A stretch of DNA of 64,000 nt from Blasia pusilla (lineage: Eukaryota): positions 25,048,001 through 25,112,000 of the forward strand of contig CM114271.1 in the NCBI GenBank assembly GCA_050084515.1, written 5' to 3'. Positions within the stretch are counted from its first letter, which is position 1. Every line of letters starts with the position of its first letter. The notes under the pieces were generated by a model, which saw only the letters and a program-made list of their open reading frames with translations, had not been told where the DNA came from and did no database searches. The position numbers were made by a program, and so were the translations under genes. Shown one piece after another: positions 25,280 to 31,237 of this stretch.

Positions 25280-28200
25280 CAACCTGTCGGAATGCGACAG
25301 CTTGCCTGTAAATGGTAAAAAAGTTGCAGTGGGCAAAAAGCAAAAAGTTGCAATCCGTCATAATCATACGGGTTGCAGAATTGTAATTCTGAGTAGCTAA
25401 GAGAACACAATCCACAAGTCCAAAAAAATATTCCAGCAAACTTTTACAAACACCATTATGGGACCCTAAAAATCTTGTCCTTTATTACCTTCGAAGGAAC
25501 CTCGGAAATGTACATTTCACCTAGTCTATGATTTCTTCAGCCTCATCATCTACAAATTTACTCCTAACTCTCCTCGGTGACAGTACCAAAGGAATGTCCT
25601 GGGATACAAGTGGCTCCTCTGGCCGATTGTAGACGGGGATCGAAAATGTTGGCGAATTTGAGAGCCTTGGCCCCCCCTAGGTACACCATAACGGTCCCAT
25701 GTAACCTATCTCGAGTCCCACCGCCTTCCTCGGCAAGAGTATACCTTGTACGCGCTCGCAATGTGACACCCATCCAAGTATCAATATCCGCTCCGCCCCG
25801 GTAATACCATTATGGCAATCGCTTGTGTAGTAGGAATCCAATACGCCTCGAGAGAAGAAAAGAAGCCTACGCCTGCCTTTACGAGTTGAGGGGAAGGTGC
25901 CAAGGGAAGAAGCCCACCAGACTGCCTCTTAAGTTGGACCAACAGGGAAAGAGTCCGATCAGGCAACCTGTCGGAATCAGACAGGTTGCCTGGAAGTGGT
26001 AAAAAGAGTGCAGTGGTCAAAAAGTGAAAAGTTGCAAGCAGGAGAACTCCGACGGGTTGCAGTGGTCATAAAGTGAAAAGTTGCAAGCAGGAGAAATCCG
26101 ACGGGTTGCAAAATAGAAGTCCGCGGAGTACATAGACGATCACATTCGAAAAGACAAAAAATGATCACAAGCACCACCATCATTCGAAAAAATCTTCTAC
26201 TTTATATCATCCGAAAAAAGATCGGAACTGTAAATTTGATCTATTCTATGAAATCTTTTGCCTCATCATCAAAAAACTCCCTACTCCAAACATTGCAGTC
26301 AAGCTGGGTCGTTGAGTTCTTTAAACTCACTCGTCATCGTCCGAGAGCTCTTGCAAAATTACTTCCGGCCTTGCCCTCCCGATTTTTGGAATTGTTGGAA
26401 GTGACGATGGAGTCACTACCAAGGGTGGCTCTGGAACCGAGCTCGGCCGGTGGAGAGTTGTATGCCCCAACGAGCCTTTCAGATTCTCGCTTTGCCTCCT
26501 TGCAAAGGGCAAGCGATTCTGCCTTCCTCGAGGCAGAATGTTCTGCCACTTTGCCATGCGCCTTTGATACTTGCCCCTGAAAGTCCCACTAAGTCGAACA
26601 CCAAGTCACCCGGCCTTGAGCGAGCTCGATGAGCGTTGCATCGTGGTGGCGACTTTTCCTTCCTCGTAAGTGGTCTTGTCTTGCATGTAAATTCCGGGGA
26701 ATTGTACAAACTATCTAAGTTGTACCCATCGAGCATGGATCCACAGGATTGTGGATCTTGAACACTGAAATTGTGCTCGGGCGAACGGCGAAGCGATACA
26801 CGTAGGAGTGGTCCATCTCAGAAATCAAAGACGTTGGAAACAATGTCGAAACTAAAGAAGTCGCCTTGAGAAGATTTTCAATAATCGACTTTGGATCAAC
26901 TTGTCGGAGTCCGACGGGTTGTTTTGTCCGGACCAACCCGTCGCCTTCCGACGGGTTGGTCAGGGACTAAAACAACCCGTCGGGCTCCGTTGTTTTTGTC
27001 CGTGAGCAACCCGTCGGAAGGCGATGGGTTGCTGGCCTAGAGCAGCCCATGCTCGCCTGAGAGCAATCCGTCGCTATCAGACGGGTTGCATCTAAAAACC
27101 AAAAGCAACTGCAACCCGTCAGGTTCCGACGGGTTGCAGGTACACCGCGGTTTTCCCTGTGTATGTGGGAAAGATGCAATCCGTCGGAAACCGACGGGTT
27201 GCTCTCAGCCGAGCATGGGCTGCTCTAAAGCCAGTAGCCCGTCGCCTTCCGACGGGTTGCTCACGGACAAAAAAAACCCAGATTGACACTCATTATACTC
27301 ACTCAACGGAGATGAACACTCATTATACACATCATTAAAATATAATTGAAATTATAGTACAGGAATTGAGCCTTACCCGAATCTGACTCGTCGCGGATCG
27401 GAGTGGGTACTCGTTTTTTATGATCCACGATTGCGCGGTCCTCCACTTTAGCGACCTCTTGACGCACTGGAGGTTGAAGAGCTCGTCCTCGCTCCCTCCA
27501 TTCAACACCAAGAAGCAGTCCTTGTCACTCAGATAGGCGTCTGCAAAGGAAAACAAAAGCGCAATCTGGTCATAAGAGAGCGGCACATTCCACTCAGGTA
27601 CCTCGTCCGACGGATTCTCGCCCCAAAGTCGCAACCCCGAGGGCAAATCGGCGATCAAGAGATCCACCGCAACCTCTTCGACCACTCCATTCATCGTCCA
27701 GGCAGCATGCTCGTTTCGTTGGAGCTTCCGTCCCAGCGTTGTCAATTTTTCGATGGCTGGTGTTGACGCTTGAGAACTAAAGCTCTTCAGCTCATCCAGT
27801 AAAGGAGTGAACTGAAGGAGGACGCTTGTCCGGGTCGTTGTTTGTCTGTGTCTTCCCAAGGATGATGGATTGTATTCTCCTTGGGACAACCCGGGCACCT
27901 CTCGCTTCCGCTTCTCCCTAGTCTGCGGACGGCTTGTCGGGGTCTCTATGACCTCAGACTCTGGTGGGGTTTTTTTCGCCAAGGACCTGGTCCAACCCTC
28001 TCTCCCCGCTCGTCCGGAAGATTCCGCCTCTGGCCTTGAATCTTCAGCCTCTCTTTGGGAAGACTCGGCCTCTGAATTTTTCCCTCCCCTTGCCTTGCCT
28101 TTGAGACCCGCTGTGGATTTGTCTTTGGCTGTGCGGATCTTGGAAGCCAACTCAGCTGTCTCGTGGGCCTGCTCTTCTGCATTTCCTCCGAAGAAGTCTT

Positions 28201-30025: not shown

Positions 30026-31237
30026 GTAAGTGTTAAAGATACTCACGTGTTCATGGCATGCATTACCATCTCTACCGTCGCCATGTGATGAGGGAATGGG
30101 TGAAGGACCACTGCCTTCACGCATAAATGTGCCTCCAATGAGTTGGGCCGCTCCTCCGCAAACTTGGTCCACGCCATGAACCTGTGATTTCCATCCTAGA
30201 TGAAGAAATGCAGATTCCTCATCCAGCTGAATTCCGTGCCCTCAACTTGCCTTCTGAAATCCTGGTCTCGCATCCTCCAAAATGTGTCGAGCTTTTCCAA
30301 GTCCTCCTCTGTAACCAGAGCTTGGGTTCCATGCTCGTCGTAAGGCTGAACATAGAAGGGAGGAAAGTTGTCGACGTAGGATGTTGTCGCCGCCGATTGT
30401 TTAAGCTTCGCGATGTCCTCGTCGGACTGAATTTCGCGGACGTATTCCATTGTCCGCAATCGGCAGAGTGGAATCCTCGGGGCGTTGTGGCCCTCCATGA
30501 GTGCCATCTGCTTTACCACCTGTCAGAACCGGGACAAGATGAATAAGCTACACTGAATTCCCAATGAATTGCAATTCACATAATTCAAAAAACCCAGATC
30601 CTCTCTTACCCGCTCGAAAATGGGGTCGGTTTCTTGACCAACTAACTTGTCTGAGACAGAAGGTGGCAAATCGACTGGGAACTCGTCGATCCGATAGAGG
30701 TCGATATCCTCCGCCAGGCTTGGAGTCGAGAATGACCGCTCTCCGACTTCTTCGGCCATGTCCACCATCTCCACGCTGGCGGTCCTCATGACCTCGTCGT
30801 CATCGATTTGAAGTGGTGTTGTTTCCACTATGTTGATTGTGTCCCCGGACTTCGTGGGGGACATTTCCCGCATCTCAACACTTGCGGTTGGACGGGCTGG
30901 GCTATCGTCAATGGCTATCGCTTTTTCCCTCCTCGCTTTAGCCAATTATGCCCTCCTCACCGACACGTCCAGACGCTTCTTTTCTCTCTTTTCGTCGGCG
31001 ATCCGTTTCTTCAAGGCCTGCGACGTCTCAGCCTCTACATTCTGTTTATCTAGCGCCTCTTGAACACGTCTCGCAAGAAGCACGATTGTGCATCTCCGCT
31101 TCCCTTTCCCGCTCCTCGATTTCCCGCTGCCTAATTTCATTTGCCGGACGAGGCCCGGGAGAAGCTGACGCAGGAGTCCTAATGGACTTCGGAGTGAAGC
31201 TCCCAGACTTGTTGGCTTGTGATTTTTTCCTTGTCAT
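26327..31237 (-). pseudogene. Four-exon gene: coiled coil, ParB/Srx-like N-terminal domain, helical linker, beta-class N4C/N6A DNA methyltransferase-like domain (left copy)
   Basis: GT-AG introns at 30520-30579, 29389-30046 and 26817-27376 join in phase. Exon 2 has RIPLCRL...PFYV...FFI*DGNHRFMAW (TAG at 30196-30198, probably from TGG). Exon 3 has VDLLIADLPSG and AYLSDKDCFLV. Exon 4 has EKSP...SRPGDLVFDLVGLSGASIKGAWQSGR...CLE. Several frameshifts and stops. Start codon uncertain. Confidence 0.75.

What the first reader, a model, noticed from the sequence alone, without database searches (positions are those of the whole stretch)
26327..31237. Intron-containing ParB-like plus beta-class amino-DNA-methyltransferase gene in a repeated plant element
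Seen: splicing three phase-compatible GT-AG introns joins short unannotated ORFs into one protein. It has a (W)DGNHR motif, then VDLLIADLPSG, AYLSDK.CFLV and EKSPALMQMLIELCSRPGDLVFDLVGLSG..GRNILCLE (cleanest in the second copy, 47478-47876). Known: DG.HR is the ParB/Srx nucleotide-binding motif. The order VDL...DPPY/DLPY, then KP..L...LI...S.PGD.VLDPF.GSG...GR..IG.E, is the beta-class N6_N4_Mtase layout, and ParB-MTase fusions occur in bacteria and phages. Eukaryotic N4C methyltransferases of bacterial origin are known in Marchantia (DN4MT1) and bdelloid rotifers (N4CMT). Inference: a prokaryote/phage-derived ParB-MTase module has gained introns and travels in a multicopy plant element, possibly writing 4mC or 6mA. 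Caveats: motif IV (DLPS/NLPS) and motif I (DLVGLSG) both deviate from consensus, both copies are disrupted, and no transposase was identified.
Basis: partly seen in the sequence, partly recalled or inferred. Interest (0 to 1): 0.92.

Follow-up and report, generated by a model that had tools for sequence, protein, structure and literature searches.

The report
Decayed methyltransferase-like gene in plant repeat
Two broken copies of a many-copy plant gene whose tail folds like a bacterial DNA amino-methyltransferase but lacks the usual catalytic residues; the proposed ParB-like front part could not be confirmed.

Summary
The sequence facts hold. A minus-strand, multi-exon gene runs from ATG 31237 to TGA 26327. 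A second, inverted, 5'-truncated copy lies at 44430-48451. All quoted motifs are present.

All 10 family sequences covering motif IV read D/N-x-P-(E/S)-G, not (D/N/S)PP(Y/F/W). A conventional 6mA/4mC writer is therefore unlikely.

The ParB reading is not supported. Exon 2 has no ParBc, PHROG, PADLOC, NCBIfam, PDB, phage or plasmid match, and its model is unusable (pLDDT 34.5). The heptapeptide W-D-G-N-H-R/S-F occurs in 22 long prokaryotic ORFs, none of them ParB-like.

RNA reads confirm intron 2 only. Both window copies are pseudogenes. The family is very high-copy and weakly transcribed. No termini or transposase were found.

Verdict: an undescribed, probably non-catalytic, beta-class methyltransferase-like multicopy gene family of a plant genome. 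Interest is moderate.

The parts
26327..31237 (-). Copy 1 of the gene, ATG to TGA; pseudogene of about 1,200 codons
   Evidence: Three-frame reading and ORF list. It carries in-frame stops and frameshifts.
30610..31237 (-). Exon 1: low-complexity, charged N-terminal part. It has one frameshift near 31050 and a TAA near 30946.
   Evidence: No Pfam family above chance.
30520..30609 (-). Intron 1 (90 nt, GT..AG, phase 0); predicted only
   Evidence: Splice-site strings. No RNA joint is listed, and coverage here is very low.
30047..30519 (-). Exon 2, the claimed ParB-like part. DGNHR lies at 30181-30195 and is preceded by TAG at 30196-30198.
   Evidence: There is no ParB support. The single-sequence AF2 model has pLDDT 34.5.
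29389..30046 (-). Intron 2 (658 nt, GT..AG, phase 2). It is filled by a 64-bp-period array of 25-27-bp palindromes.
   Evidence: An RNA joint at exactly these ends appears in 1 read (X19) and 3 reads (X20). It is absent from DNA run X1. The array is shown.
27377..29388 (-). Exon 3: an unknown middle region, a charged linker, then the N-half of the methyltransferase-like domain. It has several frame changes.
   Evidence: tblastn of Ceratodon proteins (residues 465-564) hits 27670-27365.
27635..27667 (-). Motif IV region, VDLLIADLPSG (DLPS in place of DPPY)
   Evidence: It aligns with VDLIFADPPYNL of CcrM and IDAIITDPPYY of phiKO2 gp52.
26817..27376 (-). Intron 3 (560 nt, GT..AG, phase 0 as judged from copy 2). 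It contains a nested palindrome/hairpin array at 26890-27277.
   Evidence: RNA depth is 0 in 26968-27301 in 3 of 3 RNA runs, but no joint is listed. A phase-0 intron lies at about the same place in metagenome locus L003.
26327..26816 (-). Exon 4 with stop codon: the C-half of the methyltransferase-like domain (motif I region at 26575-26613), frameshifted in copy 1
   Evidence: RNA reads carry an extra A after 26621 (6/6, 2/2 and 2/5 reads). This is also the copy-2 state.
44430..48451 (+). Copy 2: inverted and 5'-truncated inside the intron-2 array, lacking exons 1-2. Exon 3 is 45215-46834, with a 402-bp gap relative to copy 1. Exon 4 is 47370-47876.
   Evidence: Exon 4 matches PF01555 at E 1.6e-5, phrog_3008 at 1.6e-6 and PADLOC MTase_II at 1.5e-5.
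43069..43600 (.). A further array of the same palindrome, between the rDNA 5' spacer and copy 2
   Evidence: 11 of the 62 motif matches fall here.
25100..26326 (-). 3' flank of copy 1. It consists of two diverged tandem units of about 690 bp (25120-25565 and 25807-26285) with degenerate palindromes. The element's 3' end is not defined.
   Evidence: Homology with copy 2 stops at 25738 only because a CACTA element is inserted at 48452 in copy 2.

Best explanation
The finding is two decayed copies of one multicopy, intron-bearing, weakly transcribed gene family of a plant (streptophyte) genome.

An intact member would encode about 1,200 residues. Its last ~280 residues form a beta-class (N6_N4) amino-methyltransferase fold, which traces back to bacterial or phage DNA adenine/cytosine-N4 methylases.

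The domain belongs to an old eukaryotic family also present in the moss Ceratodon purpureus and in environmental plant-like contigs. In every member seen, the catalytic loop reads D/N-x-P-(E/S)-G instead of (D/N/S)-P-P-(Y/F/W). The first glycine of the SAM-binding G-x-G is almost always replaced.

I infer that the domain no longer works as a conventional base-flipping amino-methyltransferase. It is most likely kept as a SAM- or DNA-binding pseudo-enzyme module that serves the repeat family carrying it.

The N-terminal ~900 residues, including the DGNHR exon, have no recognisable relatives. Their ParB/Srx identity is unproven.

Shown: the gene structure, intron 2, the copy relationship, family membership, the fold, the deviant motifs, high copy number, and decay of both window copies.

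Inferred: loss of catalysis, mobility, and any role in the element's life cycle.
For: Gene model and motifs:
- Gene structure, motifs and the second copy are shown.

Intron and transcription:
- Intron 2 is seen in RNA only (4 reads in 2 of 3 RNA runs; no such joint in DNA run X1).
- Most laid reads have the first mate on the + strand. In the usual stranded library this means minus-strand RNA.

Copy number:
- 26,663 contigs of DNA run X1 lie on the 5-kb stretch at 90% identity or more.
- RNA reads number 77, 128 and 75, out of 10-12 million records read per run. Nearly all are 90-99% identical, so they come from other copies.

Methyltransferase homology of copy-2 exon 4:
- PF01555 at E 1.6e-5, 25.4 bits, matching profile positions 164-219 of 221.
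- phrog_3008 at 1.6e-6.
- 14 PADLOC MTase models, best 1.5e-5.
- 259 phage records by tblastn, best 2e-4, at about 38% identity to N15/phiKO2 gp52-type methylases.

Family:
- The representative search gave 8 hits at E<=1e-3. Five are relatives: P0001, P0002, P0004, P0005 and P0006.
- The Ceratodon paralogs P0001, P0009, P0011 and P0012 carry locus tags of four chromosomes.
- tblastn places both halves of the domain colinearly in the window.
- Seven metagenome loci encode relatives with introns.

Fold:
- The family profile hits DpnA-type M1.HpyAVI (E 2.2e-4) and CcrM (E 0.05, aligned across both motifs).
- AF2 of the Ceratodon domain with a 21-row alignment gave pTM 0.63, with core blocks at pLDDT 70-90.
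- Foldseek top hits are all beta-class amino-MTases, led by CcrM at E 4.5e-10.

Deviant motifs:
- 10 of 10 sequences covering motif IV lack the first Pro and the aromatic residue.
- 1 of 14 sequences covering motif I keeps G-x-G.

Decay:
- Exon identity between the copies is 90.4-92.6%, against 87.7-91.6% for introns and flank.
- Exons carry 30 frameshifting indels between the copies.
Against: - No window copy reaches Pfam's gathering score (25.4 against 26.7 bits). Copy-1 exon 4 matches nothing.
- The fold model is of the Ceratodon relative, not of the window protein, and its mean pLDDT is only 57.9.
- Loss of catalysis is inferred from motifs alone. Active enzymes tolerate some motif I variation (recalled, not tested).
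- Mobility is not shown. No terminal repeats, target duplications or transposase were found.
- Contig counts are not copy numbers.
- Many single-base differences in copy 1 could be assembly errors in a repeat.
- RNA support is thin: 4 junction reads, all from diverged copies.
Confidence: 0.7

Rival explanations
1. One reading: a prokaryote- or phage-derived ParB-methyltransferase fusion that is, or recently was, an active 4mC/6mA writer carried by a plant mobile element.
For: - The D-G-N-H-R motif follows a hydrophobic stretch in exon 2.
- Pfam DUF1015 gives a weak hit over residues 70-127, which include the motif (E 0.008, 15.6 bits, below the 25.8 cut-off). I only recall, and did not verify, that this family is related to ParB.
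- The MTase-like domain is real and closest to phage and bacterial beta-class enzymes.
- ParB-linked methylases in phages, and eukaryotic derivatives of them, are described in passages of PMC4738411.
Against: Exon 2 has no ParB support:
- No ParBc or other ParB-type hit in Pfam, NCBIfam, PHROGs or PADLOC.
- 0 PDB sequences and 0 phage records.
- Only chance-level plasmid hits, E>=2, none on a ParB gene.
- 0 relatives in the protein collections and in viral contigs.

The motif is not specific:
- The heptapeptide W-D-G-N-H-R/S-F occurs 116 times in prokaryote genomes.
- Of the 22 occurrences in ORFs of 120 aa or more, none is in a ParB-type family.

The architecture does not fit:
- About 500 residues separate the motif from motif IV. 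I recall ParB-methylase fusions as having the two domains adjacent; no fusion was examined here.
- Five nearest phage methylases are 238-353 aa stand-alone enzymes. The two that were scanned contain PF01555 only.

The catalytic motif IV is non-canonical in 10 of 10 family members.
Confidence: 0.08
2. The gene is not the core of its own element. It is a passenger or accessory gene of another transposon. One candidate is the neighbouring Gypsy-type retroelement with a C5-DNMT in its pol. Another is a transposon that captured the gene and spread it.
For: - On the same strand, directly downstream, lie the DNMT (22592-23287, PF00145 at 1.9e-11), RT, RNase H and integrase of a Gypsy-like pol.
- The element's own ends are undefined.
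- No transposase was found in the gene.
- Retroelements that carry methyltransferases are known (passages of PMC5890265).
Against: - Copy 2 has no such pol next to it within the window. A CACTA insertion cuts it at 48452, so this is not decisive.
- An accessory gene upstream of gag-pol would be unusual (established knowledge of LTR element layout).
- No LTR-like repeat brackets the gene together with the pol.
Confidence: 0.12
3. It is a host multigene family, or a segmental duplication around an rDNA unit, and is not mobile. The two window copies are local inverted duplicates.
For: - The two copies flank a complete 18S-5.8S-28S unit in inverted orientation.
- The Ceratodon relatives are annotated as ordinary genes.
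- Introns are present, and one intron position is shared with a distant relative.
Against: - 26,663 contigs of one DNA run match at 90-100% identity with a broad spread (6,313 / 9,815 / 10,535 in the three identity bands). This is far more than a local duplication would give.
- Transcripts come from many diverged copies.
- The copies diverge neutrally, with frameshifts.
- The relatives in Ceratodon are about 90% identical paralogs on four chromosomes.
Confidence: 0.1

Closest known systems
Beta-class N6-adenine / N4-cytosine DNA methyltransferases of bacteria and phages (Pfam PF01555; CcrM, M1.HpyAVI/DpnA, M.MboIIA, M.PvuII, M.RsrI; N15/phiKO2 gp52)
   Same: - Same fold and same motif order, IV before I.
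- The C-half is about 38% identical to gp52-type phage methylases.
- The (P/E)GD-hVhD...GAS...GR..h.hE block is conserved.
   Different: - Motif IV reads D/N-x-P-(E/S)-G, not (D/N/S)PP(Y/F/W), in 10 of 10 members.
- G-x-G is kept in only 1 of 14 members.
- The HP.(Q/E)KP motif becomes REK(S/D).
- The gene has spliceosomal introns, a ~900-residue unrelated N-terminal extension and an acidic tail.
- It scores below Pfam's gathering score.
Ceratodon purpureus hypothetical proteins KAG0605740.1 and KAG0624017.1, plus the M758_1G310400 and M758_6G158200 products (P0001, P0009, P0011, P0012)
   Same: - Same methyltransferase-like family, colinear over both halves.
- 30-42% identity, the same deviant motifs and the same acidic ...LSDD tail.
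- Multicopy.
   Different: - Their N-terminal 430 residues share nothing detectable with exons 1-3 of the window gene, and they have no DGNHR.
- They are shorter, at 758-810 aa.
Eukaryotic N4-cytosine methyltransferases of bacterial origin: bdelloid rotifer N4CMT and Marchantia DN4MT1
   Same: - In the DN4MT1 case the host is also a plant lineage.
   Different: - Those enzymes keep the catalytic motif. TSPPY is stated for DN4MT1 in passages of bioRxiv 10.1101/2021.02.12.428880.
- They are host genes with shown activity.
- The present family lacks the motif and is a high-copy repeat.
ParB-linked methylases of phage ParB-terminase loci, and eukaryotic offshoots (haptophyte Clade 6; ParB-HTH plus chlorophyte-type Dam)
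   Same: Precedent for phage ParB-associated adenine methylases entering eukaryotes (passages and section 8 of PMC4738411).
   Different: - Those clades are in haptophytes, chlorophytes and chytrids, with FHA or ParB-HTH fusions.
- Here no ParB domain could be demonstrated.
- The taxon, the domain partners and the catalytic loop all differ.
Transposon-borne epigenetic enzymes, e.g. KnitGypsy-Dnmt3 of Klebsormidium nitens
   Same: A methyltransferase-type domain carried in many copies by a repeat. A Gypsy-like pol with a C5-DNMT lies right next to copy 1.
   Different: - Those are C5-DNMTs with conserved catalytic residues, inside an intron-less pol polyprotein.
- Here it is an amino-MTase-like domain with altered motifs, in an intron-bearing gene with no recognised transposition enzyme.
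Catalytically degenerate methyltransferase paralogs such as METTL14
   Same: A methyltransferase fold kept with a disrupted active-site motif. Section 8 of PMC4738411 notes this for METTL14.
   Different: - METTL14 is an MT-A70 member acting as partner of an active subunit.

Membership tests
N6_N4_Mtase (PF01555), beta-class amino-methyltransferases | Profile match at or above Pfam's gathering score | tested here: not met
   - Copy-2 exon 4 scores 25.4 bits against the 26.7 cut-off (E 1.6e-5).
- Copy-1 exon 4 and both motif-IV ORFs give no hit.
- Relatives score 26.5 bits (P0006), 22 bits (P0002) and no hit (P0001).
N6_N4_Mtase (PF01555), beta-class amino-methyltransferases | Rossmann-like fold with motif IV N-terminal to motif I | tested here: met
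   - The top rows are all beta-class enzymes.
- Motif order is shown.
N6_N4_Mtase (PF01555), beta-class amino-methyltransferases | Catalytic motif IV (D/N/S)-P-P-(Y/F/W) | tested here: not met
   The motif reads DLPS (copy 1), NLPS (copy 2), DAPE (4 Ceratodon proteins) and DIPE (4 metagenome loci). 0 of 10 are canonical.
N6_N4_Mtase (PF01555), beta-class amino-methyltransferases | SAM-binding motif I, F-x-G-x-G | tested here: not met
   - The window reads DLVGLSGAS.
- The family reads D-h-(S/T)-A-x-T-G-A-S.
- Only L007 (DLTVGTG) keeps G-x-G, 1 of 14.
N6_N4_Mtase (PF01555), beta-class amino-methyltransferases | SAM-dependent methyl transfer to an exocyclic amino group | not testable with these tools
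   This needs biochemistry or native-DNA modification calling.
ParB/Srx superfamily (ParBc, PF02195) | Profile or sequence match to a ParB-type family | tested here: not met
   - No ParBc hit at E<=10.
- 0 families in NCBIfam, PHROGs and PADLOC.
- 0 PDB sequences and 0 phage records.
- Plasmid hits are at E>=2 only and on unrelated genes.
- The only hit is DUF1015 at E 0.008, below its cut-off.
ParB/Srx superfamily (ParBc, PF02195) | DG-x-HR / G-x-x-R nucleotide-binding motif after a beta-strand | tested here: inconclusive
   - HFFI(TAG)DGNHRFMAW is present.
- As a control, W-D-G-N-H-R/S-F occurs in 116 places in prokaryote genomes.
- The 22 occurrences in ORFs of 120 aa or more belong to flavin reductase, inositol monophosphatase, kinase, NUDIX and other families. 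0 of 22 are ParB-type.
ParB/Srx superfamily (ParBc, PF02195) | ParB/Srx fold | tested here: inconclusive
   The single-sequence AF2 model has mean pLDDT 34.5 and pTM 0.25, so it is unusable. No homologues could be found to build an alignment.
Phage/bacterial ParB-methyltransferase fusion | ParB domain directly fused to the methylase, and nearest relatives sharing that architecture | tested here: not met
   - About 500 residues lie between DGNHR and motif IV.
- The Ceratodon and metagenome relatives lack the DGNHR exon.
- Five nearest phage methylases are 238-353 aa. The two scanned contain PF01555 only.
Eukaryotic N4C methyltransferases (N4CMT, DN4MT1) | S-P-P-Y type catalytic motif | tested here: not met
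   The motif is DLPS/NLPS in the window. TSPPY is stated for DN4MT1 in passages seen.
Transposable element | Many dispersed, diverged copies | tested here: met
   - Two copies lie in the window.
- 26,663 contigs of DNA run X1 lie on the stretch at 90-100% identity.
- Dispersal itself was not seen, because no genome is held.
Transposable element | Defined termini (TIR/LTR), target-site duplication, transposition enzyme | tested here: inconclusive
   - No TIR or LTR was found between 31238-32000 and 23300-26330.
- The repeat scan shows no TIR or LTR among the 25 of 85 inverted-repeat pairs that it lists.
- The apparent 3' end in copy 2 is a CACTA insertion.
- No transposase-like family was found in any ORF of the gene.

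The most novel reading that the evidence does not exclude
The family is a plant mobile element whose single long protein combines two parts. One is a highly diverged ParB/Srx-type nucleotide-binding or nicking module. The other is a re-purposed beta-class methyltransferase domain.

The 25-27-bp perfect palindromes (GCAACCCGTCGG-N3-CCGACGGGTTGC) stand in 64-bp arrays inside the element's introns and flanks. In this reading they are the protein's parS-like loading sites. A phage ParB-methylase DNA-handling module would then have been turned into the propagation or anti-silencing machinery of a eukaryotic repeat.
Probability: 0.06. Interest if true: 0.9.

Novelty: new variant of a known kind. Interest (0 to 1): 0.5.

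Why it matters
Eukaryotic acquisitions of bacterial amino-methyltransferases are few, and each has drawn attention (rotifer N4CMT, Marchantia DN4MT1, the MT-A70 clades).

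This is a further clade that is not in the catalogue I could read (section 8 of PMC4738411). It also did not surface in a full-text search pairing PF01555/N6_N4_Mtase with bryophyte, moss or transposable-element terms: none of the 12 papers listed of 3,063 matching held either family term. It is present in at least one moss and in the window's plant genome.

It stands out in three ways:
- It is multicopy and repeat-borne.
- It has introns, one apparently shared across distant members.
- Its catalytic loop is altered in a conserved way.

If the domain is a pseudo-enzyme, it is a case of a repeat keeping a methyltransferase fold for another purpose. If it is active, it would be a repeat-encoded 6mA/4mC writer in plants, sitting next to a retroelement that carries its own C5-DNMT.

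For annotation, the window copies themselves are dead pseudogenes.

Tried and rejected
Exon 2 (ParB claim) gave nothing in any of these:
- Pfam at E<=10, NCBIfam, PHROGs, PADLOC.
- PDB sequences.
- tblastn against phages and plasmids (6 chance hits at E>=2).
- The word-indexed protein search, both 'longer' and 'near'.
- Viral contigs.
- Single-sequence AF2, pLDDT 34.5.
I did not resend that exon.

Motif control. The back-translated W-D-G-N-H-R/S-F pattern found 116 places in prokaryote genomes. Of these, 94 lie in ORFs under 120 aa. None of the other 22 is in a ParB family.

Middle region of exon 3:
- No Pfam, NCBIfam, PHROG or PADLOC family.
- PDB hits only at E>=0.06.
- Atlas best score 0.84, IQ-motif clusters, lead-level only.

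Other searches:
- Atlas for P0001: methyltransferase-type clusters at 0.86-0.88, below the 0.9 lead threshold.
- Prokaryotic relatives of the family's C-half by pattern scan of genome contigs: none.
- Two of the 8 representative-search hits (P0003, P0007; long repeat proteins) were left out of the Pfam scan and of all alignments. P0008 is a bacterial PF01555 fragment.
- Element ends: no TIR or LTR between the 5' upstream and 3' downstream regions. No other copy of 31238-31960 or 43601-44430 exists in the window.

Intron 3. Acceptors at 'GATAG|T' and 'CAAG|AC' were rejected. They are out of phase with the strong donor CGG|GTAAGG, or they would remove conserved residues.

Sequencing runs. No RNA holder was listed by the look-up of sequencing runs.

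Tools not available:
- No whole genome is held.
- The genome search on a metagenome locus was not possible. The DUF1015-ParB relation therefore stays a recollection.

Full report
**What is in the sequence**

The finding's coordinates are exact. On the minus strand an ATG lies at 31237 and a TGA at 26327-26329. Between them I place four exons:

- Exon 1, 31237-30610.
- Exon 2, 30519-30047.
- Exon 3, 29388-27377.
- Exon 4, 26816-26327.

They are separated by three GT..AG introns:

- Intron 1, 30609-30520, phase 0.
- Intron 2, 30046-29389, phase 2.
- Intron 3, 27376-26817, phase 0 as read in copy 2.

A second copy lies inverted on the plus strand at 44430-48451. It is 87-91% identical in nucleotides. 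It starts inside the intron-2 repeat array, so it lacks exons 1 and 2. It also lacks 27948-28349 of copy 1.

Both copies are dead. Copy 1 has TAG in place of the residue before DGNHR (30196-30198), a TAA near 30946, a frameshift in exon 1 and several frame changes in exons 3 and 4. The two copies differ by 17 frameshifting indels in the first kilobase of exon 3 and by 13 in exon 4. There are none in the 571 bp that hold motif IV.

Exons are no better conserved between the copies (90.4-92.6%) than introns and flank (87.7-91.6%). For that count I set the intron 3/exon 4 border at 26825. It is really 26817.

**Transcription and copy number**

No whole genome is held for this window. I therefore laid three RNA-seq runs and one DNA run of the same coded species on 26300-31300.

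- Only 77, 128 and 75 RNA reads were laid, out of 10-12 million records read per run. All but one were below 99% identity, so the transcripts come from other family copies.
- Most have the first mate on the plus strand. In the usual stranded library this means minus-strand RNA, the sense strand of the gene.
- A joint that skips exactly 29389-30046 was seen in 1 read (X19) and 3 reads (X20). It was absent from the DNA run, so intron 2 is a real spliced intron.
- No joint was listed for introns 1 and 3. However, RNA depth is zero over 26968-27301 in all three runs.
- RNA reads carry an extra A after 26621 (6/6, 2/2, 2/5). That is also the copy-2 state, and it removes one of copy 1's frameshifts.
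- In the DNA run, 26,663 contigs matched at 90-100% identity. This is not a copy number, but it shows a very abundant and diverse family.

**The methyltransferase-like domain is real**

Copy-2 exon 4 matches several libraries:

- PF01555 at E 1.6e-5. At 25.4 bits it is just under the 26.7-bit gathering score, and it covers the last quarter of the profile.
- PHROG DNA methyltransferase families, down to 1.6e-6.
- 14 PADLOC methyltransferase models.
- 259 phage records by tblastn, best E 2e-4 at about 38% identity. The top ones are N15/phiKO2 gp52-type adenine methylases.

A full HMMER scan of 1.84 billion representatives gave 8 hits at E<=1e-3.

- Five are relatives: a 758-aa hypothetical protein of the moss Ceratodon purpureus, and four short unnamed ENA/JGI fragments.
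- One is a bacterial PF01555 fragment.
- Two are long repeat proteins that I set aside.

Ceratodon has at least four paralogs of about 90% identity, with locus tags of four chromosomes. Their residues 465-564 and 585-646 match the window's motif-IV ORF and exon 4 in order. Seven short metagenome contigs encode further relatives with introns. In L003 a phase-0 intron sits at about the same place as the window's intron 3. The gene family is therefore an old eukaryotic one and not a recent transfer.

A profile of the family hits M1.HpyAVI (DpnA type, E 2.2e-4) and CcrM (E 0.05) among PDB sequences. The CcrM alignment runs from motif IV to motif I.

An AlphaFold model of the Ceratodon domain, built with a 21-row alignment that includes the window's exons, reached pTM 0.63 (mean pLDDT 57.9, core 70-90).

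- Foldseek ranks beta-class amino-methyltransferases first: CcrM at 4.5e-10, then M.BceJIV, M1.HpyAVI, rotifer N4CMT, TTHA0409, M.RsrI, M.MboIIA and M.PvuII.

**But it is not a canonical enzyme**

All 10 sequences that cover motif IV read D/N-x-P-(E/S)-G:

- DLPSG and NLPSG in the window.
- DAPEG in the four Ceratodon proteins.
- DIPEG in four metagenome loci.

Phage and bacterial enzymes have DPPY at that place. The first glycine of G-x-G in motif I is kept in 1 of 14 sequences. In fact they are conserved traits of the family.

The aromatic residue and the Pro-Pro backbone of motif IV hold the flipped base and its amino group. That is established knowledge of amino-methyltransferases and was not tested here. 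I therefore think conventional 6mA/4mC writing is unlikely, and that the fold is kept for binding SAM or DNA. This step is inference.

**The ParB part**

Exon 2 contains HFFI-(stop)-DGNHRFMAW. Every search I could run was negative. The single-sequence model is useless.

The only signal is a sub-threshold Pfam hit to DUF1015 over the motif (E 0.008). I could not verify what that family is related to.

As a control I asked where the heptapeptide W-D-G-N-H-R/S-F occurs in 596 Gb of prokaryote genomes. It occurs in 116 places. Of these, 94 lie in ORFs shorter than 120 aa. The 22 in longer ORFs belong to flavin reductases, inositol monophosphatases, kinases, NUDIX and other families, and none is ParB-type. 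The motif alone therefore carries little weight.

Two further points count against a ParB-methylase fusion as the source:

- The Ceratodon and metagenome relatives have a different N-terminal region.
- The five nearest phage methylases I looked at are stand-alone enzymes.

**The element**

Introns 2 and 3, the 3' flank and a block at 43069-43600 are packed with one palindrome, GCAACCCGTCGG-N3-CCGACGGGTTGC.

- It gives 62 matches to one arm with up to one mismatch, against 0.14 expected. 61 of them lie in or beside the two copies.
- It forms 64-bp arrays and larger nested foldbacks.
- RNA reads with other flanks show that the palindrome family also occurs elsewhere in the genome (loose ends).

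I found no terminal repeats, target duplications or transposition enzyme. The apparent 3' end shared by the copies is only where a CACTA element has inserted into copy 2. The class of the repeat stays open.

**Comparison and verdict**

This is a new clade of eukaryotic beta-class amino-methyltransferase-like proteins. It is repeat-borne, intron-bearing and has a conserved non-canonical catalytic loop.

- It is not among the six group-1 clades described in the section of PMC4738411 that I read. The supplements could not be opened.
- A full-text search pairing the Pfam names with bryophyte, moss or transposable-element terms showed nothing relevant: none of the 12 papers listed of 3,063 matching held either Pfam term.
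- It is distinct from DN4MT1, which has TSPPY (passages).

Its methyltransferase inference is right at the level of fold and ancestry. Its ParB inference is unsupported, and its functional suggestion is doubtful.

Noticed in passing
window 35841-41842 (minus strand), spacers 31300-35840 and 41843-43000: A complete 18S-5.8S-28S rDNA unit lies exactly between the two inverted copies of the gene. The 5' ends of both copies face it. No 5S gene was found at Rfam gathering score. The unit may be solitary, sit at an array edge, or reflect an assembly join.
   Followed up: partly
window 31955-35800: Long arrays of spacer sub-repeats, with units of about 125-147 bp at 32043-32500 and further GC-rich repeats up to the 28S end. 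They produce very long spurious ORFs on both strands.
   Followed up: no
window 19405-23922 (minus strand): A decayed Gypsy-type pol carrying a C5 cytosine DNA methyltransferase segment upstream of RT, RNase H and integrase. The segment is at 22592-23287 (PF00145 at 1.9e-11, TIGR00675 at 1.8e-10). The layout resembles KnitGypsy-Dnmt3, described for Klebsormidium nitens (PMC5890265).
   Followed up: partly
window 48452 onward; ORF 54657-55178 (minus strand): A CACTA-type transposon starts at 48452 (CACTAGAAG... with GACTA-rich subterminal repeats) and cuts copy 2. A TNP2-like DUF4218 ORF (E 1.2e-23) lies 6 kb further on. The other end is not in the window.
   Followed up: partly
window 26890-27277, 29427-30027, 43069-43600, 44430-45170, 46920-47190: A 25-27-bp perfect palindrome stands in 64-bp arrays that form larger foldbacks (166-nt arms at 29498-29834). 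The arrays fill two introns of the gene. RNA reads show the same repeat with other flanks elsewhere in the genome.
   Followed up: partly
window 6632-10300 (plus strand) and 14484-18103 (minus strand): A LINE with an endonuclease (PF03372) and RT (PF00078), and a Copia-type element (gag_pre-integrs, RVT_2). Both are broken.
   Followed up: partly
window 25120-25565 and 25807-26285: The 3' flank of copy 1 is a tandem duplication of a unit of about 690 bp at 75-80% identity. Copy 2 shows only one unit before the CACTA insertion.
   Followed up: no
window 62300-62700: A long GA/AG-type simple repeat that reads as (RE)n in an ORF.
   Followed up: no
copy 1 versus copy 2, exons 3-4: Most frameshifting differences are single bases missing in copy 1 relative to copy 2. 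This pattern would also fit long-read assembly errors in a repeat.
   Followed up: no
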